Origin: a virus
Taxonomy: Duplodnaviria; Heunggongvirae; Uroviricota; Caudoviricetes
Virus record (IMG/VR): IMGVR_UViG_2541047119_000017
Reading direction: 5' to 3' (one strand)
Length of the DNA stretch: 4,264 bases
The notes beneath the pieces were generated by a model that worked only from the letters and a program-made list of their open reading frames with translations, had not been told where the DNA came from and did no database searches. This document shows positions 1-4,264 of the stretch, one piece after another. The first letter of the stretch is position 1. The number at the start of each line of letters is the position of its first letter. Position numbers and translations under genes: made by a program.

Positions 1-209
1 TATGTAATCATTCTGGCAATGCTTAATGCCGCTGCTTTTTCCAGATTGGTGATATCCTGCTCCAGAGCGGACAGATTTTCAGCCTGCTTAGCCCTGGCTT
101 CATTGGCCCATTTCAGGTCCTGCACCGCCTTAATTTTCTGGTGCATCCACTCATAAAGTTCATCATCGGTATAGTCTGGCGCGATGATGACGGGGTCTCG
201 TTTCTGCAT
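1..209 (-). CDS. Hypothetical protein, N-terminal part only (start codon at 209..207, gene continues past the window start); predicted helical/coiled-coil-like sequence
   Basis: Minus-strand ATG at 209..207 preceded by an AAGGAG Shine-Dalgarno (plus-strand CTCCTT at 215..220, 5-nt spacer). The frame stays open for 69 codons to the window edge (MQKRDPVIIAPDYTDDELYEWMHQKIKAVQDLKWANEARAKQAENLSALEQDITNLEKAAALSIARMIT). All three plus-strand frames in 1..209 are closed by early stops. Not in the supplied ORF track because it runs off the window. Confidence 0.55.
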   Translation of the reverse strand, partial: MQKRDPVIIAPDYTDDELYEWMHQKIKAVQDLKWANEARAKQAENLSALEQDITNLEKAAALSIARMIT

Positions 210-281
210 GTCGGCTCCTTGTGGTTAGCGTTGCCTGCTTTTTAACCACGTCAGGCGAGGTGGTATCCTCTGAGGGGTCTG

Positions 282-581
282 TTACTCGAGAGGAAATTGG
301 TTATGAATACAATCAAGTTTTCTTGCCCAGAATGTGGTGGCTAAGTCTTTGACACATCCTTTAAGCCGCAGGGCTCTGACAGTTTCGCGGGAGCCATCTG
401 CAAAAATTGTGGTCACCTTGTAACTGAAGATGAGTCCTCGCAGTTCGATGACGAAATCGTTGACAATATCTTCGGTGCACTCACCAGAGACTTTCTGAAG
501 TAAAGGCGCATACCGCTTAGTTACCGCTCTGATAACTCTTACCTGTCCGGCAATGGCGCTGATATCAATATAAAGCGCCAT
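282..581 (-). CDS. Hypothetical protein (99 aa), leftward early-operon cargo of unknown function
   Basis: Only uninterrupted ORF over 282..581 in any frame; no long plus-strand ORF competes. It lies downstream of and on the same strand as the repressor gene, where Qin carries the ydfABC-dicF-dicB cassette. Weak points: no convincing Shine-Dalgarno upstream of the ATG (AAAGAAACAGCG), and I do not recognise the protein. Confidence 0.4.
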   Translation of the reverse strand: MALYIDISAIAGQVRVIRAVTKRYAPLLQKVSGECTEDIVNDFVIELRGLIFSYKVTTIFADGSRETVRALRLKGCVKDLATTFWARKLDCIHNQFPLE

Positions 582-716
582 CGCTGTTTCTTTGCTGATC
601 CCTGGACGCCTTCCATTCTGATGTTTGACTCGCCCACTGAGAAATCCTCTGCTTCCCCTTAACGCCGGGTAGCGGAACTGTTTGCTGAGAACACCGTGCG
701 GTGTCTTGATGAGTAG

Positions 717-746
717 AATTTAGAATAGCCTAAGAGTTATGGTCAA
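717..746 (-). promoter_or_regulatory. Putative pL-like leftward promoter with overlapping operator (OL-like)
   Basis: Minus strand: -35 TTGACC (plus 741..746), 18-bp spacer, -10 TAAATT (plus 717..722). The spacer contains TTAG-aatagc-CTAA (720..733), the same TTAG-N6-CTAA motif seen three times between the repressor and cro-like genes. A second, imperfect copy gTAG-aaaaac-CTAA lies at 756..769. Confidence 0.3.
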
Positions 747-781
747 GCTTTTTGTGTAGAAAAACCTAAGCTTCTTGATGT

Positions 782-810
782 AAAAAACACAAGTATTTGA
801 AAGTTTGTGC
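782..810 (-). terminator. Weak candidate intrinsic terminator downstream of the repressor gene
   Basis: Minus-strand RNA would read gCACAA-acuuucaaauac-UUGUG-UUUUUU: a 5-bp stem (plus one G-U pair), a 12-nt loop and a 6-U tract, about 35 nt after the repressor stop. The stem is short and AT-rich, so this is tentative. Confidence 0.2.
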
Positions 811-844
811 TTTTTATTACAGAGAGTTGCGAAAAAAAGGGGGG

Positions 845-1252
845 TTATTTATTTGCGCTTCTTTTGCGAGCTTTGAGTAGTTCTTCAAAAAGTTTGTTGA
901 AATTCTCAACTCGAGCACGCATCTCTGACAACAGAGCCTTTTGCTCTGACTCAGGCAGTGCGTCGAACAGTTGAAGCAACTCTTTTTGATCTTCTGTCAG
1001 ATTGACTGGCTGATTATCTGGGATCGGTTCGCCTGGTTGCTTATCTTCATCTCCAAAAAGAAGCCAAGTCGGCGAGCACTGAAGCGCCTGGCTCAGTGCG
1101 AATAATCTCTTCCCCGCTGGCTGTGTTTCATCTCTTTCCCATTGAGAAATTGTTACGTGAGCCACTTTGACCAGCTTACCTAATGCGGCCTGAGACAGTT
1201 TTAATTTTTTTCGCCTGTATAAGAGGCGAGCACCGAAGGTTTCGTTTTTCAT
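845..1252 (-). CDS. dicA: DicA-like HTH (XRE/cI-type) prophage repressor, 135 aa
   Basis: ORF 845..1252 (minus). N-terminal HTH signature (LSQAALGKLVKVAHVTISQWERDETQPAGKRLFALSQALQCSPTWLLFGDE) and C-terminal segment (LPESEQ...EMRARVENFNKLFEELLKARKR) closely match my recollection of E. coli Qin DicA (135 aa). Divergent from a cro-like gene across an operator region. No Shine-Dalgarno upstream of the ATG; see the finding on a leaderless transcript. Confidence 0.9.
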   Translation of the reverse strand: MKNETFGARLLYRRKKLKLSQAALGKLVKVAHVTISQWERDETQPAGKRLFALSQALQCSPTWLLFGDEDKQPGEPIPDNQPVNLTEDQKELLQLFDALPESEQKALLSEMRARVENFNKLFEELLKARKRSANK

Positions 1253-1328
1253 ATTAGGTAATTCTAATTTTTCTTGACTTAGGTTTCTCTACGATCTAGT
1301 TTCCTTAGGAAAATCTAAGGGTTTCGAT
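1253..1328. promoter_or_regulatory. Divergent operator/promoter region of the immunity switch (three TTAG-N6-CTAA operator-like sites)
   Basis: O1 aTTAG-gtaatt-CTAAt (1253..1268), O2 cTTAG-gtttct-CTAc (1278..1292, one mismatch), O3 CCTTAG-gaaaat-CTAAGG (1303..1320), centre-to-centre spacing 25 to 26 bp. Plus-strand -35 TTGACT at 1274..1279 with a weak -10 TAGTTT at 1297..1302 for the cro-like gene. Minus-strand -10 TAGAAT (plus 1261..1266) inside O1, immediately upstream of the repressor ATG. Confidence 0.6.
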
Positions 1329-1556
1329 ATGTTGAAAATTGATGCTATAGCGTTTTTTGGCAGCAAAACAAAGCTTGCCAATGTCGCAGGAGTTAGGCTG
1401 GCAAGCGTTGCTGCATGGGGGGAACTGGTTCCTGAAGGTCGCGCGATGCGCCTGCAAGAGGCATCCGGCGGGGAACTTCAGTACGACCCCAAAGTTTATG
1501 ACGAATATCGTAAGGCAAAGCGGGCGGGGCGGTTGAACAATGAAAATCACCACTGA
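1329..1556 (+). CDS. dicC: DicC/Cro-like small DNA-binding regulator, 75 aa
   Basis: ORF 1329..1556 with AAGGG Shine-Dalgarno (1317..1321), 7-nt spacer. Divergent from the DicA-like repressor across the operator region, which is the cro position. Its size and position match DicC of Qin and YdaS-type Cro analogues. The family call is from context and recollection, not an alignment. Confidence 0.8.
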   Translation: MLKIDAIAFFGSKTKLANVAGVRLASVAAWGELVPEGRAMRLQEASGGELQYDPKVYDEYRKAKRAGRLNNENHH

Positions 1557-2091
1557 ACAGGTTTGTGAGGCTCTGGATACCTGGGTATGCCGACCAGGAA
1601 TGACACAGGAGCAGGCGACGATATTAATCACGGAAGCATTCTGGGCTCTGAAAGAACGCCCGAACATCGATGTTCAACGCGTCACGTTTAATGATGGCGA
1701 GGTTGATCAACGGGCGCTGGGCGTTAACCGGGTGAAGATATTCGAACGCTGGAAAGCTATCGACACCAGAGATAAGCGTGACAAATTCACGGCGCTGATT
1801 CCGGCAATTATGGAGGCTATCCGGATCAGCGATTTCAGATTGTATTGTGAAATTACTGACGGAAAAAGCATTACGTACATGATCGCCGGGTTAAACAAAG
1901 AATATGGCGATGTGGTGGAGTCCGGGCTGCTTTTTGCGGATCCAGTTGTTGTGGAACGTGAGACTGACGAGCTTATAGAAAAAGCTATTGCTTTCAAGCA
2001 CGCGTATCGTCAGCAATACCAATATTACTTTGCAGATAAACAAATGTCTGCCAGGGGGGCGTATGAGTATCGATGCACTACGATGGGCTAA
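1540..2091 (+). CDS. ydaT: YdaT-like protein (proposed functional analogue of CII in Rac/CP-933P-type prophages), 183 aa
   Basis: ORF 1540..2091, ATG overlapping the end of the cro-like gene by 17 nt, with a G-rich ribosome-binding region (GGGGCGG, 1523..1533). It occupies the cII position. The N-terminal MKI..E motif and the internal KFTALIPAIMEAI segment resemble what I recall of E. coli YdaT (MKI..., KIQKLIPAILAIL). Tentative family assignment. Confidence 0.65.
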   Translation: MKITTEQVCEALDTWVCRPGMTQEQATILITEAFWALKERPNIDVQRVTFNDGEVDQRALGVNRVKIFERWKAIDTRDKRDKFTALIPAIMEAIRISDFRLYCEITDGKSITYMIAGLNKEYGDVVESGLLFADPVVVERETDELIEKAIAFKHAYRQQYQYYFADKQMSARGAYEYRCTTMG

Positions 2092-3103
2092 AAAGGTGAA
2101 AACCGGCAGTTCATCCAGTAAGTCAGTATTGACCTGGCTTGCTGATATGTGCGGTGCCGATTTGTGTGCATACCCGTCTGTATCTGCACTGGCAGAAGTA
2201 ACGGAACTGAACAAAAAGACTGTGCAGGACAGCTTACGACACCTGATGGAGATTGGGTTAATTGTTGATACCGGTGAGAGAAAAGGCAGAACAAAGCAAA
2301 TTGTGGTGTACCGACTTATCGGTGTAGAAGAAAGTGTTGCCGAGCCTGAATACACCCAAAAACGGGAGTCTTTAAAGGTGGGTAAAATTGGTGCTGTTAA
2401 TAAAAACAGTACCGAAAATGGTTATGTTTCAGCACAAAACAGACCCAAAAACAGAACTCTTAGCTGCATGGAAAATAACCAAAGACACCCAAATTTTCCA
2501 TCAAAGACACCCAAAAACGGATCACGGAACCCAAAGGAACCCAAAGATCTAAACCCCACACATAACGCACGCGAGAGTGCTCCGACCAGTGAGCAGGAAG
2601 TTTTGTCGTTACAGGCAGCCCCCCCTGTATTCCTGTATGGCCTGAGCGAACCCATCGGAAAATTCCCGATGAGCGATAGCTGGTATCCGTCACGGGATTT
2701 TCGACGACGGGCTGCGTTGTGGGGGATGGCTTTGCCGGAGACAGAATTTACACCTGCTGAACTTGCCGCCTTCCGGGACTACTGGGCAGCGGAGGGGAAA
2801 GTGTTTACGCAGATTCAGTGGGAGCAGAAATTCGCCCGTCACGTAAATCACGTCAGGGCGCAGGTTAAACCAGTCAGCAAAGGGGTAAACCATGCAGCAG
2901 CACCAGGTGGCACCGCATCACGGGCAGTTCAGGAAATTCGGGCAGCACGTGAGCAGTGGGAACGTGAAAACGGATTTATCAGCAACGGAAACGGCCTGGA
3001 AGCTGTGGGAGCTCATGGGGGAGGTGTATTCGAACCGCTGGACTCAGAAGAACGGGGCCGCACCTTCGAAGCTCTGGATTGCCCAGATTGGTGCGATGAC
3101 TGA
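2063..3103 (+). CDS. Phage replication initiation protein (lambda O-like replisome organiser): N-terminal HTH domain plus C-terminal DnaT-like domain
   Basis: Long ORF 1988..3103; start preferred at ATG 2063 (MSIDALRWAKK...), which has an AGGGGGG Shine-Dalgarno at 2053..2059. The N-terminus (LRWAKKVKTGSSSSKSVLTWLADMCGADLCAYPSVSALAEVTELNKKTVQDSLRHLMEIGLI) is typical of phage replication-initiator HTH domains. The C-terminal region (WYPSRDFRRRAALWGMALPETEFTPAELAAFRDYWAAEGKVFTQIQWEQKFARHV) resembles the DnaT-type DNA-binding domain found in many enterobacterial prophage replication proteins. The two are joined by a low-complexity Pro/Lys/Asn-rich linker. Confidence 0.85.
   Translation: MSIDALRWAKKVKTGSSSSKSVLTWLADMCGADLCAYPSVSALAEVTELNKKTVQDSLRHLMEIGLIVDTGERKGRTKQIVVYRLIGVEESVAEPEYTQKRESLKVGKIGAVNKNSTENGYVSAQNRPKNRTLSCMENNQRHPNFPSKTPKNGSRNPKEPKDLNPTHNARESAPTSEQEVLSLQAAPPVFLYGLSEPIGKFPMSDSWYPSRDFRRRAALWGMALPETEFTPAELAAFRDYWAAEGKVFTQIQWEQKFARHVNHVRAQVKPVSKGVNHAAAPGGTASRAVQEIRAAREQWERENGFISNGNGLEAVGAHGGGVFEPLDSEERGRTFEALDCPDWCDD
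2436..2546. repeat. Iteron-like direct repeats inside the initiator gene (candidate origin of replication)
   Basis: CAAAGACACCCAAA occurs at 2480..2493 and 2502..2515 (22-bp period). A related AAAACAGACCCAAAAAC is at 2436..2452. A tandem 10-bp unit GAACCCAAAG is at 2527..2536 and 2537..2546. The CCCAAA core begins at 2444, 2488, 2510, 2530 and 2540, i.e. at multiples of roughly 10 to 11 bp. An AT-rich stretch lies just upstream (about 2391..2440). In lambda the ori iterons also lie in the middle of gene O. Confidence 0.5.
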
Positions 3104-3557
3104 ACAGCAAATCCGGCAGGTCTGCCGTCAGTGCATGGACCGCTGCCGGGCGGGTGAAACGTGGCCTCCGGACCTGGCTGAGTTTGTTGCGCTGATTTCG
3201 GAGAGTGGGGCAAATCCATTTGGTCTTACGGTGGATGCCGTGATGGAAGAGTACCGGCGCTGGCGCAATGAATCCTGGCGATACGACGGGAGTGATAAAT
3301 ACCCGTGGCCACAGCCGGTGCTGTACCACATTTGCCTCGAGATGCGTGACAGAGGGATTGAGCGGCAGATGACGGAAGGTGAGTTAAAACGACTTGCAGA
3401 ACGGCAACTGACGAAATGGGCAAAGCAAGTTGGTAACGGGATGAGTATTCCCCCGATCCGGAGACAACTCGCATCGCCGAAGTGCCCGCAAGGGCCAACG
3501 CCAATTGAATTACTGAAACAGGAATACGAGCGCCGGAAGGCGGCTGGTTTTGTTTGA
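2892..3557 (+). CDS. Lambda P-like replication protein (helicase loader), 221 aa
   Basis: ORF 2892..3557 with AAGGGG Shine-Dalgarno at 2880..2885 (6-nt spacer). Segments YPWPQPVLYHICLEMRDRGIERQMTEGELKRLAERQL and WPPDLAEFVALISESGANPFGL align by eye with lambda P (YPWKSNAHYWLVTNLYQNMRANALTDAELRRKAADEL and PSPGQFVAWCREEASVTAGLP). With this start the gene overlaps the initiator gene by 212 nt in another frame. Alternative in-frame starts at 3015 or 3096 would shorten the N-terminus. Confidence 0.8.
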   Translation: MQQHQVAPHHGQFRKFGQHVSSGNVKTDLSATETAWKLWELMGEVYSNRWTQKNGAAPSKLWIAQIGAMTEQQIRQVCRQCMDRCRAGETWPPDLAEFVALISESGANPFGLTVDAVMEEYRRWRNESWRYDGSDKYPWPQPVLYHICLEMRDRGIERQMTEGELKRLAERQLTKWAKQVGNGMSIPPIRRQLASPKCPQGPTPIELLKQEYERRKAAGFV

Positions 3558-3590
3558 ATCTGAGAAACGATTTTGTCGGAGGAAATTTTA

Positions 3591-4264
3591 ATGGAAACCG
3601 TATCTGACGCACTGAAAGCACTGAAAAAAGCCTCTTCACATGTGGTGGCAGCTCGCCTTGGAATCAGTCGTGAAGAGGCTGTCAACGAACTGTGGAAACT
3701 GAAGCGCCGTGGAGAAGCGGATAACAAGGGGGCGATATGGTGGCTGACTCAGGCTGGTGAAAGTGAACCGGTGTCACCGGTACCGAAAGTGACGGCGCAA
3801 ATGCTGACAGAGGCGATTGAACAACATGGCCCACAAACGGCGGATGAACTGGCATTGATGTTCGGAATTACCTCCCGCCGGGCGAATTCATCGCTGGCAA
3901 TGGCAATCAGCAAAGGGCGTCTGATTCGCGTGAATCAGGGCGGTAAATTTCGGTACTGCATACCGGGCGCTGATTTACCGGCAGAGCCGAAAGCCGCATC
4001 CATAACGGAAACGGATGGTAAAGCCTTTCCTCAGCCAGCAGGTGTTGCGTTACCAGTCGGGGAAGCGGAAACACAGGAAGAAATAAAAACGGAAAGTGTG
4101 GCGGTCACAGTGCAGTCACAGCCGTCGTTCACCAGAAAGCATCCGGATGGTCTGATTTTACCATCGCTGCATGTGGCTAACCGCGAGCTGCGCCGGGCAA
4201 AAGGTCAGGTTCAGAAGTGGGAGCGAGTCTGCGCCGCGCTGCGGGAAATTAATAAGCATCGTGA
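3591..4264 (+). CDS. Hypothetical prophage protein with two winged-helix-like modules (possibly DUF1627-type), N-terminal 224 codons; continues past the window end
   Basis: ATG at 3591 preceded by GGAGGAAA (3578..3585). The frame is open to the window end ([56 protein letters not shown]...[56 protein letters not shown]...). Not in the supplied ORF track because no stop lies inside the window. The family name is from memory of similarly placed prophage genes and is uncertain. Confidence 0.7.

What the first reader, a model, noticed from the sequence alone, without database searches (positions are those of the whole stretch)
2436..2546. Iteron-like repeats embedded in the replication initiator gene: candidate ori, with coding low-complexity as a by-product
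Five CCCAAA-cored repeats phased at about 10 to 22 bp (including an exact 14-mer at 22-bp period and a tandem 10-mer) lie in the part of the O-like gene that encodes the Pro/Lys/Asn-rich interdomain linker (...QNRPKNRTLSCMENNQRHPNFPSKTPKNGSRNPKEPKDLNPTH...). This mirrors lambda, where ori iterons sit inside gene O and are bound by the N-terminal domain of O itself. The protein low-complexity is then best explained by DNA-level constraint. An inverted repeat GGAAAAT (2470..2476) / ATTTTCC (2493..2499) flanks the first 14-mer.
Basis: partly seen in the sequence, partly recalled or inferred. Interest (0 to 1): 0.6.

Follow-up and report, generated by a model that had tools for sequence, protein, structure and literature searches.

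The report
Replication-origin repeats inside prophage initiator gene
The repeats are real, are conserved as DNA rather than as protein, and are most likely the binding sites (origin of replication) for the prophage's own initiator protein, as in phage lambda; the result is well supported but expected.

Summary
The window is the immunity/replication region of an E. coli lambdoid prophage of the ompW-site family (Sp9/PPompW). ACCCAAA occurs six times, all on the + strand within 2354-2545 and nowhere else (0.77 expected). The copies lie in the predicted disordered linker between a winged-helix N-terminal domain and a DnaT-like C-terminal domain of the initiator.

Seventy-seven homologous genes from many Proteobacteria carry a repeat array at the same gene position. 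The Enterobacterales/Vibrio motif CCNAAAACGG falls 146 of 147 times in gene nt 250-520. It is read in all three frames, with synonymous codons fixed. Spacings of 17/18 and 22/24 bp recur, and about half of all spacings are not multiples of 3.

The array travels with the N-terminal domain whatever the C-terminal domain is. It is absent from Rac YdaU, which shares only the C-terminal half. The consensus resembles lambda's iteron.

Caveats: only two copies in this allele (2354, 2509) keep the full consensus. No AT-rich tract follows the array here. Binding and origin activity are inferred, not shown.

This is a new member of a known kind, of modest interest.

The parts
2063..3103 (+). Replication initiator gene (346 aa): N-terminal winged helix, disordered linker, DnaT-like ssDNA-binding domain and a C-terminal tail.
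   Evidence: ORF. Pfam gives DnaT E=9e-17 (residues 201-267) and HTH_36 at 20.9 bits, below the 25-bit cut-off. Relatives score 30-52 bits for HTH_36. PHROG 'replication initiation protein' E=9e-91. PGAP annotates the same ORF in EDL933.
2063..2320 (+). N-terminal winged-helix (HTH_36-type) domain, the presumed iteron-binding domain.
   Evidence: AF2 model: helices 3-11, 17-30, 40-47 and 51-64, then a beta-hairpin at 67-85. Weak fold matches to wHTH regulators and to staphylococcal plasmid Rep N-terminal domains. It hits PHROG 678 and 345 on the same profile region as the lambda O N-terminus.
2324..2647 (+). Region encoding the predicted disordered linker (residues 88-195), which contains the whole repeat array.
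   Evidence: pLDDT is about 25 across residues 88-195. This is the most variable part of the protein alignments.
2354..2365 (+). Iteron copy 1, full consensus ACCCAAAAACGG, read as T-Q-K-R.
   Evidence: Present at the same gene position (nt 291-296) in the Edwardsiella and Serratia relatives, and in modified form in the Enterobacter/Kluyvera relatives. T98, Q99 and R101 are invariant in protein alignment A2.
2371..2430 (+). AT-rich patch (about 32% GC), the only coding stretch this AT-rich in the window. A candidate unwinding region lying inside the array.
2411..2421 (+). Degenerate iteron ACCGAAAATGG. Other E. coli alleles have C at 2419, which gives the full CCGAAAACGG.
2443..2454 (+). Iteron copy ACCCAAAAACAG. 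The A at 2453 is a minority allele; most relatives have G, which gives the full consensus.
   Evidence: 11 of 69 close relatives share A; the commonest protein cluster reads RPKNG.
2468..2501 (.). 9-nt inverted repeat ATGGAAAAT/ATTTTCCAT flanking the first 14-mer. Significance is doubtful.
   Evidence: The shuffle test gives P of about 0.06. Enterobacter and Kluyvera relatives carry an inverted half-iteron, CCGTTTTT(T)CC, at the equivalent place.
2487..2499 (+). Variant copy ACCCAAATTTTCC: left arm kept, right arm replaced by a T-tract.
   Evidence: Edwardsiella relatives have ACCCAATTTTGG at the equivalent place.
2509..2520 (+). Iteron copy, full consensus ACCCAAAAACGG, read as P-K-N-G.
   Evidence: P150, K151, N152 and G153 are invariant in alignment A2. 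The last CCCAAAAACGG is present in every Enterobacterales relative examined.
2526..2546 (+). Tandem 10-mer GGAACCCAAA x2. It carries left-arm half sites only and is prone to slippage.
   Evidence: It aligns with GGAATCTACCAAAGGAACCTAAAGATC in relatives. One-copy and three-copy alleles exist in E. coli and shift the reading frame.
2663..2863 (+). DnaT-like ssDNA-binding domain (residues 201-267).
   Evidence: Pfam PF17948 E=9e-17. Foldseek matches DnaT structures 4ou6 and 6aeq with target-normalised TM 0.84-0.92 and 49-58% identity.
2892..3557 (+). Lambda-P-like helicase loader gene. The long form overlaps the initiator's last 212 nt in another frame; public annotation starts it at 3096.
   Evidence: Pfam Phage_lambda_P E=1.6e-16. 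PHROG 109 'P-like helicase loader' scores 215 bits for the long form against 188 for the short form. The overlap is conserved in relatives.

Best explanation
The repeats are iterons, that is, cognate binding sites for the N-terminal winged-helix domain of the protein whose gene contains them. Together with nearby easily melted DNA they form the prophage's origin of replication.

Proposed sequence of events:
1. After derepression, the rightward operon (cro, ydaT-like gene, initiator, P-like gene) is transcribed.
2. Initiator molecules bind the array at 2354-2545. The two full sites, ACCCAAAAACGG at 2354 and 2509, are probably the strongest. The mutated or half sites would be weaker or bound cooperatively.
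3. The resulting nucleoprotein complex destabilises adjacent DNA.
4. The C-terminal DnaT-like ssDNA-binding domain and tail engage the opened strand and/or the P-like loader, which delivers host DnaB.

Because the sites lie in a stretch that encodes a disordered linker, the DNA sequence is dictated by binding. The Pro/Lys/Asn/Gln-rich peptide is a tolerated by-product.

Shown here: DNA-level, frame-independent conservation; a fixed position and orientation; linkage to the N-terminal domain; the disordered linker; the P-like loader gene downstream.

Inferred, not shown: binding by the N-terminal domain; origin firing at this site; the roles of the DnaT-like domain and of the AT-rich patch.
For: 1. 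The enrichment is real and strand-specific.

2. Homologues carry an array at the same place. Seventy-three of the 77 full-length homologous genes (80 genome loci, three annotated phages and this window), from Enterobacterales, Acinetobacter, Vibrio, Marinomonas, Pseudoalteromonas and Desulfovibrionaceae, have 4 or more repeat copies at about gene nt 270-480.

3. The constraint is on the DNA.
- CCNAAAACGG occurs 147 times in these genes, 146 of them within nt 250-520. It occurs once on the opposite strand and 4 times in 330 kb of flanks.
- It is read in three frames (110/32/5), for example as PKNG or as TQKR.
- 20 of the 27 genes with 3 or more copies use 2 or more frames.
- Within [PT][KE]NG peptides, Asn is AAC 108:8 against 348:458 elsewhere (Fisher P=8e-27). 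Lys is AAA 75:0 against 671:342. Pro is CCC 91:0 against 114 of 611.
- Synonymous resampling of this window's linker gives 0.51 ACCCAAA, with 6 observed.

4. The geometry is conserved regardless of frame. Spacings of 17, 18, 22 and 24 bp dominate, and 149 of 317 spacings are not multiples of 3.

5. Natural domain swaps link the array to the N-terminal domain.
- Edwardsiella phage EPP-1 has the same N-terminal domain and the same iteron, AAAGACACCCAAAAACGG, but a Phg_2220_C C-terminus.
- Vibrio H20 has no recognised C-terminal domain.
- Rac-SA53 YdaU shares the DnaT half (89% nt identity from window position 2543 onward) but has a DUF1376 N-terminus and no such repeats.
- Iteron similarity rises with N-terminal identity (Mantel r=0.28, P=5e-4).

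6. The array lies in a linker with pLDDT about 25, between a winged helix and a DnaT domain.

7. There is a link to lambda.
- Lambda's annotated iterons read ATCCCTCAAAACGAGGGA and sit at gene nt 349-433 of O.
- The family consensus reads (A/G)TCCCAAAAACGGGA(T/C), with flank complementarity of 44-47% against 25% by chance.
- Both N-terminal domains hit PHROG 678 and 345 on the same profile region.

8. Across the family, GC drops by 12 points about 40 nt 3' of the array, as in lambda.

9. A P-like loader gene follows.

10. Sakai prophage Sp9 is 97% identical over window 1-3703. The O157:H7 genomes listed match 2300-2620 at 100%. Sp9 was scored positive for circularisation, replication and packaging (PMC2669165).

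11. Deletions that end exactly in iterons occur in natural alleles.
Against: - No experiment shows binding or origin activity for this family. I found no paper describing it.
- In this allele only two copies carry the full consensus. Two carry point changes in the CGG arm (T at 2419; A at 2453, a minority allele in 11 of 69 relatives). Three keep only ACCCAAA. The origin could therefore be weakened.
- The AT-rich tract seen 3' of the array in the family is absent here: GC is 54-55% at 2540-2620. The only AT-rich patch, 2371-2430, lies inside the array.
- There are no DnaA boxes and no internal promoter-like site.
- Homology of the N-terminal domain to lambda O is only indirect. BLASTP finds nothing, hhalign gives 3.5% probability, and Pfam Phage_rep_O gives E=0.049.
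- The loci are not phylogenetically independent, and repeat units also spread by duplication. Both inflate the count statistics.
Confidence: 0.75

Rival explanations
1. The sites bind the initiator but are regulatory rather than the point of initiation. They might serve autoregulation, initiator titration or handcuffing, or act as an incompatibility/exclusion determinant, with strand opening elsewhere.
For: This allele has no AT-rich tract directly 3' of the array. Several copies are half sites. Arrays of initiator sites serve copy control in iteron plasmids (general knowledge, e.g. PMC3401445).
Against: Across the family an AT-rich dip follows the array. The position, orientation and geometry mirror lambda, where the same arrangement is the origin (PMC7466680). 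No second array of the motif exists in the window or in the flanks of homologues: 4 hits in 330 kb.
Confidence: 0.12
2. The repeats act at the protein level. A repeated P-K-N-G-like peptide motif in the linker is the selected feature, and the DNA repeats are its by-product.
For: In some relatives (phiV10, Vibrio H20) the period is 24 bp and the peptide repeats exactly, as PKNGMLND and ENGTLNRP.
Against: The same DNA motif is read in three frames, as PKNG, TQKR or PQKRD. Spacings of 17 and 22 bp rotate the frame. Synonymous codons are fixed. The exact 14-mer in this window encodes QRHPN in one copy and SKTPK in the other. The linker is predicted to be disordered.
Confidence: 0.04
3. The repeats are neutral low-complexity DNA. 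They arose by slippage or duplication in a tolerant linker and have no function as DNA or as protein.
For: The tandem 10-mer varies in copy number (1, 2 or 3), and deletions between repeats occur among E. coli alleles, some of them causing frameshifts.
Against: Neutral repeats would not keep one core motif, one orientation, one gene position and a 17/18-22/24 bp spacing across different bacterial orders while synonymous sites in the adjacent domain vary freely (major-codon fraction mostly 0.36-0.82 at invariant residues).
Confidence: 0.04
4. The array is a decaying remnant. It was the origin, but this prophage allele has lost function.
For: Two arm mutations are specific to this allele or a minority of alleles. 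Related prophages carry frameshifted initiator genes. Sp9 has defects in other modules (PMC2669165).
Against: The initiator ORF is intact here. Two full iterons remain. In lambda, two iterons plus the AT-rich region suffice for unwinding in vitro (as summarised in PMC7466680). Sp9 was scored positive for replication.
Confidence: 0.15

Closest known systems
Phage lambda ori-lambda: four O-binding iterons plus an AT-rich tract inside gene O, with P as the DnaB loader
   Same: - The iteron array lies inside the initiator gene, directly after the N-terminal DNA-binding domain (lambda gene nt 349-433; here 291-483).
- The repeats are direct, about 20 bp apart and in mixed reading frames, and encode a Pro/Lys/Asn/Gln/Gly-rich linker (lambda: IPQNEGKSPKTRDKTSLKLGDCYPSKQGD).
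- The core resembles lambda's: TCCC, an A-tract ending in C, then GGGA.
- A lambda-P-family loader gene lies downstream.
- The N-terminal domain plus iterons behave as one specificity module, and the recombination boundary with Rac-SA53 falls at the 3' end of the array.
   Different: - The N-terminal domain is HTH_36-type. It does not meet Pfam Phage_rep_O (E=0.049) and is linked to lambda O only through shared PHROG profiles.
- The C-terminal half is a DnaT-like ssDNA-binding domain, not lambda O's C-terminal domain.
- The iteron arms are shorter, and in this allele mostly asymmetric.
- The family geometry is 17/18 then 22/24 bp.
- No AT-rich tract lies 3' of the array in this allele.
- The P gene overlaps the initiator's tail by 212 nt.
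RepA_N-family plasmid replicons of Gram-positive bacteria (e.g. staphylococcal pSK41/pTZ2162 Rep)
   Same: The origin repeats lie in the central part of the rep gene, between an N-terminal winged-helix DNA-binding domain and a C-terminal host-interaction domain (my own knowledge of that family). The N-terminal model here gives weak Foldseek matches to these Rep N-terminal domains: 5kbj, 4pql, 4pt7 and 4pta, E 0.015-0.045.
   Different: The structural matches are weak and there is no sequence relationship. The hosts and replicon type differ, and those plasmids have no P-like loader.
Rac prophage YdaU (DUF1376 + DnaT)
   Same: The C-terminal DnaT domain and tail are about 89% identical at the nucleotide level from window position 2543 onward. 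The same downstream P-like ORF and the same 212-nt overlap are present.
   Different: The N-terminal domain is different (DUF1376), and there are no CCCAAA/CCNAAAACGG repeats in the gene. Its origin specificity must therefore differ.
Iteron plasmids (pPS10, R6K, F, P1 and similar)
   Same: Direct repeats are bound by a winged-helix initiator, and iteron sequence co-varies with the initiator.
   Different: In those plasmids the iterons lie outside the rep gene, usually with DnaA boxes and a separate AT-rich unwinding element. No DnaA box is present here.

Membership tests
Lambda-type phage origin (iterons inside the initiator gene) | An array of three or more direct repeats inside the initiator ORF, immediately downstream of its DNA-binding domain | tested here: met
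   There are six ACCCAAA copies plus one degenerate copy at gene nt 291-483, after the winged helix at residues 3-85. Lambda's iterons are at gene nt 349-433.
Lambda-type phage origin (iterons inside the initiator gene) | The repeats are constrained as DNA, independently of the reading frame | tested here: met
   Three frames are used, synonymous codons are fixed, and spacings are often not multiples of 3.
Lambda-type phage origin (iterons inside the initiator gene) | Iterons with internal dyad symmetry around an A-tract | tested here: inconclusive
   At family level this holds: flank complementarity is 44-47% against 25% by chance, and many copies are palindromic, such as GTCCCAAAAACGGGAC. 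In this window copy 1 has arms CACCC/GGGAG (4 of 5 complementary), and the other copies have little symmetry.
Lambda-type phage origin (iterons inside the initiator gene) | An AT-rich unwinding tract adjacent to the iterons | tested here: inconclusive
   Across the family, GC drops by 12 points at +40 nt after the array. In this window the 3' side is 54-55% GC, and the only AT-rich patch (32% GC, 2371-2430) lies inside the array.
Lambda-type phage origin (iterons inside the initiator gene) | A cognate P-type helicase loader encoded downstream | tested here: met
   Pfam Phage_lambda_P E=1.6e-16 and PHROG 109 'P-like helicase loader'.
Lambda-type phage origin (iterons inside the initiator gene) | The initiator binds the repeats, and replication starts there | not testable with these tools
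   This needs EMSA or footprinting and origin-cloning or mapping experiments.
Lambda O protein family (Pfam Phage_rep_O, PF04492) | The N-terminal domain matches the family model above its threshold | tested here: not met
   E=0.049, 14.6 bits against a cut-off of 28.7. BLASTP finds nothing and hhalign gives 3.5% probability. Remote relatedness is suggested only by shared PHROG 678 and 345 profile regions.
HTH_36-type replication initiators (Pfam PF13730) | The N-terminal winged-helix domain matches the model | tested here: inconclusive
   This protein scores 20.9-23.5 bits, below the 25-bit cut-off. It aligns along the whole domain (38-76% identity) with relatives that score 30-52 bits.
DnaT-like ssDNA-binding domain proteins (PF17948) | The C-terminal domain matches the DnaT DNA-binding domain in sequence and fold | tested here: met
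   Pfam E=9e-17. Foldseek matches 4ou6 and 6aeq with target-normalised TM 0.84-0.92 and 49-58% identity.
Iteron plasmid origins | DnaA box(es) next to iterons that lie outside the rep gene | tested here: not met
   TTWTNCACA is absent from the window, and the repeats are intragenic.

The most novel reading that the evidence does not exclude
The winged-helix domain plus its own binding-site array may be an ancient, mobile specificity cassette shared by lambda O and the whole HTH_36-type initiator family of proteobacterial phages. On this reading the origin always lies in the DNA encoding the disordered linker, keeps a fixed geometry (two or three sites 17-18 bp apart, then sites 22-24 bp apart) and a lambda-like core (TCCC, A-tract, GGGA). 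It recombines as a unit with unrelated C-terminal helicase-recruiting domains (DnaT-like, Phg_2220_C, lambda-O-type). If so, phage origins of this class could be predicted from sequence alone in thousands of prophages. Their initiator linkers would also be a clear case of a protein sequence dictated by a cis-acting DNA element.
Probability: 0.45. Interest if true: 0.5.

Novelty: new member of a known kind. Interest (0 to 1): 0.4.

Why it matters
It assigns a likely replication origin to a prophage family present in 907 of 5426 complete E. coli genomes. These include O157:H7 Sp9 and the PPompW prophages that host Stx2a phages.

It also gives a simple sequence rule for locating origins in HTH_36-type phage replication modules: look for the repeat array directly after the N-terminal winged helix.

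It shows that the odd Pro/Lys/Asn-rich segment of these "DnaT-like" proteins should not be read as a protein feature.

It explains recurrent frameshifted or shortened alleles as products of recombination or slippage between origin repeats.

Conceptually it is an extension of the lambda paradigm, not a new mechanism.

Tried and rejected
- DnaA boxes: none found.
- Internal promoter or terminator: no promoter-like site, and one terminator-like site on the minus strand, no more than expected by chance.
- GATC clustering: 11 sites against 14 expected in the window, and only two near the array. Not pursued.
- Direct homology to lambda O: BLASTP found nothing, hhalign was insignificant, and Pfam Phage_rep_O was sub-threshold. 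Only the indirect PHROG link held.
- PDB sequence searches with N-terminal profiles gave only weak generic wHTH hits.
- A codon alignment across 11 Enterobacterales relatives, meant to compare synonymous conservation inside and outside the iterons, failed inside the linker because frame changes break the protein alignment. I replaced it with motif-anchored codon counts.
- Distribution of substitutions among close E. coli alleles: 3 of 24 variable sites fall in ACCCAAA cores against 4.5 expected (my count). This is uninformative.
- The inverted repeat as a distinct element: P of about 0.06 and not conserved as such.
- Literature searches for a prior description of iterons in HTH_36/DnaT-type phage initiators found none in the searchable library. 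This is not proof of absence.
Full report
**Context.** The window is the immunity/replication region of a lambdoid E. coli prophage.
- Genes: a cI-like repressor (845-1252, minus strand; HTH_3 only), a P22-Cro-like gene (1329-1556), a YdaT-like gene (1540-2091), the initiator (2063-3103), a lambda-P-like loader and a DUF1627 gene.
- The initiator gene is 99.3% identical to "PPompW" prophages of STEC O145:H28.
- Window positions 1-3703 are 97.2% identical to prophage Sp9 of O157:H7 Sakai and to the ompW-site prophage of EDL933.
- The segment 2300-2620 matches 907 of 5426 complete E. coli genomes at 90% identity or more, and is 100% identical in many O157:H7 strains.

**Observation.**
- The exact 14-mer lies at 2480 and 2502, and the tandem 10-mer at 2526-2546.
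- The inverted repeat is in fact 9 nt: 2468-2476 / 2493-2501.
- ACCCAAA occurs six times in the window, all on the + strand, at 2354, 2443, 2487, 2509, 2529 and 2539. The expectation is 0.77, and no shuffle out of 200 reached six.
- The array therefore starts about 80 nt upstream of the stated coordinates. A degenerate copy, ACCGAAAATGG, lies at 2411.
- With the peptide held fixed and synonymous codons resampled, 0.51 copies are expected and the maximum in 5000 trials was 4. Six are observed.
- The 9-nt inverted repeat alone is only marginally unusual, with P of about 0.06.

**Where the repeats sit in the protein.** An AlphaFold2 model built on 32 homologues shows four parts:
- a winged helix at residues 3-85;
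- a disordered stretch at residues 88-195, with pLDDT about 25;
- a confident domain over residues 200-267;
- a low-confidence tail.

The confident domain superposes on the DnaT ssDNA-binding domain (4ou6, 6aeq; target-normalised TM 0.84-0.92; 49-58% identity). Pfam agrees. All repeat copies (residues 98-161) fall in the disordered linker.

**Comparative evidence that the constraint is on DNA.**
- tblastn and pattern scans recovered the same N-terminal domain in annotated phages: Edwardsiella EPP-1, E. coli phiV10, Vibrio H20-like phages, Acinetobacter phages and Burkholderia Bcep176. They also recovered it in 80 genome loci from many proteobacterial genera.
- In 73 of 77 full-length genes there is a repeat family with four or more copies at gene nt about 270-480.
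- In Enterobacterales and Vibrio the unit is CCNAAAACGG, often AAAGACACCCAAAAACGG as in this window.
- In Acinetobacter clades it is AACAGTNCCAACAATGG or GTACCAAAAGTGGTAC. In Desulfovibrionaceae it is CGCCCCCGAA.
- CCNAAAACGG occurs 147 times in the genes, 146 of them in nt 250-520. It occurs once on the antisense strand and four times in 330 kb of flanking DNA.
- It is read in all three frames (110/32/5), as PKNG, TQKR(E/D) or PQKRD. Of the 27 genes with three or more copies, 20 use more than one frame.
- I selected sites by peptide ([PT][KE]NG) and then counted codons. Asn is AAC 108:8 (elsewhere 348:458; P=8e-27). Lys is AAA 75:0 (elsewhere 671:342). Pro is CCC 91:0 (elsewhere 114 of 611).
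- Synonymous sites at invariant residues of the adjacent N-terminal domain vary freely among the same taxa.
- Spacings cluster at 17, 18, 22 and 24 bp, typically two or three short spacings followed by longer ones. Of 317 spacings, 149 are not multiples of three.
- In this window the two identical 14-mers encode QRHPN and SKTPK. The three full or near-full sites are read as TQKR, PKNR and PKNG.

These facts exclude a peptide-level repeat. They also argue strongly against neutral low complexity.

**Linkage to the N-terminal domain.**
- The array accompanies the HTH_36-type domain whatever follows it. That can be DnaT (this window, phiV10), Phg_2220_C (EPP-1, which has the same iteron as this window at 72% N-terminal identity) or no recognised domain (Vibrio H20, Acinetobacter, Desulfovibrionaceae).
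- Conversely, Rac-SA53 YdaU shares the DnaT half and downstream genes at about 89% nucleotide identity. That homology begins at window position 2543, the 3' edge of the array. Upstream, YdaU has a DUF1376 domain and no such repeats.
- Iteron similarity increases with N-terminal identity (Mantel r=0.28, P=5e-4). Shared ancestry contributes to this correlation.

**Relation to lambda.**
- Lambda's four annotated iterons read ATCCCTCAAAACGAGGGA, ATCCCCTAAAACGAGGGA, ATCCCTCAAATTGGGGGA and ATCCCTCAAAACAGGGGG. They lie at gene nt 349-433 of O, 20-24 bp apart, and are followed by an A-rich, AT-rich tract. They encode IPQNEGKSPKTRDKTSLKLGDCYPSKQGD.
- The family consensus here is (A/G)(T/A)CCC(A/G)AAAACGG(G/T)A(C/T). 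It has significant flank complementarity and many perfectly palindromic copies, such as GATCCCAAAAACGGGATC and GTCCCAAAAACGGGAC.
- Direct sequence comparison of the two N-terminal domains is not significant. Both, however, match the same regions of PHROG 678 and PHROG 345, "replication initiation O-like".
- Across the family, GC falls by 12 points about 40 nt after the last repeat.

**What is atypical in this allele.**
- Only the copies at 2354 and 2509 keep the full ACCCAAAAACGG.
- The 2411 copy has T for C at 2419. The 2443 copy has A for G at 2453. Of 69 close relatives, 58 have G at 2453, and others have C at 2419, giving three or four full sites.
- The copy at 2487 replaces the right arm by a T-tract. 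Edwardsiella has ACCCAATTTTGG at the equivalent place, and Enterobacter and Kluyvera have an inverted CCGTTTTT(T)CC.
- The tandem 10-mers align with a conserved, non-repetitive GGAATCTACCAAAGGAACCTAAAGATC in relatives. They are probably not canonical iterons. They occupy the position where other clades have AT-rich DNA or a second repeat type.
- The window has no AT-rich tract 3' of the array, where GC is 54-55%, although the top strand there is strongly A-rich (AT skew 0.6-0.7). The only AT-rich coding patch, 2371-2430, lies between copies 1 and 3.
- No DnaA box is present.

**Natural variation.**
- Some E. coli alleles lack 66 bp between the 2443 and 2509 copies. This is in frame and removes 22 residues.
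- Another lacks 89 bp between the 2354 and 2443 copies, which shifts the frame.
- Others carry one or three copies of the 10-mer, which also shifts the frame and splits the gene into HTH and DnaT ORFs.

The repeats are thus recombinogenic. Part of the prophage population has an inactivated initiator.

**Function.**
- Sp9 was scored positive for circularisation, replication and packaging in Sakai, and was not inducible by mitomycin C because its repressor lacks a peptidase domain (PMC2669165). This is consistent with the 135-aa repressor encoded here.
- That is indirect support for an active replication module. It does not map the origin.
- The lambda paradigm is documented in PMC7466680: the origin lies in the middle of O, is made of iterons plus an AT-rich tract, and extra iterons add residues to O.

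**Conclusion.** The repeats are best explained as the initiator's own binding sites forming the prophage origin, with the peptide as a by-product (confidence about 0.75).
- Remaining alternatives are a regulatory role for the same binding sites, or a partly decayed origin in this allele.
- Peptide-level or neutral explanations are essentially excluded.
- I found no prior description for this initiator family in the searchable literature. The principle is textbook, so this is a new member of a known kind.

Noticed in passing
window 2892-3103 (and L085-L088, L004): The lambda-P-like loader ORF is open from ATG 2892, which has a Shine-Dalgarno-like AAAGGGG upstream. It overlaps the last 212 nt of the initiator gene in another frame. 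PGAP and GenBank start P at 3096 or later. Homology to P-like loaders extends upstream of 3096: PHROG 109 scores 215 bits against 188, and the Pfam match starts at residue 56 of the long form. The 212-215 nt overlap, with a conserved P-frame peptide, is kept in Scandinavium, Enterobacter and Kluyvera relatives and in Rac-SA53. P is likely mis-annotated as truncated, and this is a long conserved dual-coding overlap.
   Followed up: partly
window 2526-2546; L168, L084: The tandem 10-mer GGAACCCAAA varies in copy number among E. coli prophages (1, 2 or 3 copies). One or three copies shift the frame and split the initiator into separate HTH and DnaT ORFs.
   Followed up: partly
window 2354-2520; L167; proteins P0006/P0007: Deletions with both ends in iterons occur in natural alleles. 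One removes 89 bp between the 2354 and 2443 copies (frameshift, annotated as a pseudogene). Another removes 66 bp between the 2443 and 2509 copies (in frame, 22 aa shorter).
   Followed up: yes
window 1254-1266 and 1305-1317; 721-734 and 757-770: TTAGG(T/A)AA(T/A)TCTA occurs twice in the repressor-cro intergenic region. The related motif TAGAA(T/A)A(G/A)CCTAAG occurs twice in the AT-rich region left of the repressor gene, which also holds a 23-bp tandem repeat at 745-788. These are likely OR-like and OL-like operator sets.
   Followed up: no
window 845-1252 (-): The repressor is only 135 aa, with an HTH_3 domain and no S24 peptidase domain. This matches the published description of Sp9 as not inducible by mitomycin C.
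   Followed up: partly
L002 about 2905-2950 (phiV10); L146, L121, L152, L003: In phiV10-type and Vibrio relatives the iteron array is followed directly by a second, AT-rich repeat. It reads AACCAGTCATAT x3 in phiV10 (peptide NQSYNQSYNQSF), with CAGAAYCAGTCA conserved across genera. It is a candidate unwinding element or second binding site, and is absent from this window.
   Followed up: no
window 3703-4264: Identity to Sakai Sp9 and to the EDL933 prophage drops from 97% to 81%, with a gap at 3704-3813, inside the DUF1627 gene. This is a mosaic boundary just downstream of the replication module.
   Followed up: no
window 1540-1556 and 2063-2091: The rightward operon is tightly packed. The Cro and YdaT-like ORFs overlap by 17 nt, and the YdaT-like and initiator ORFs by 29 nt.
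   Followed up: no
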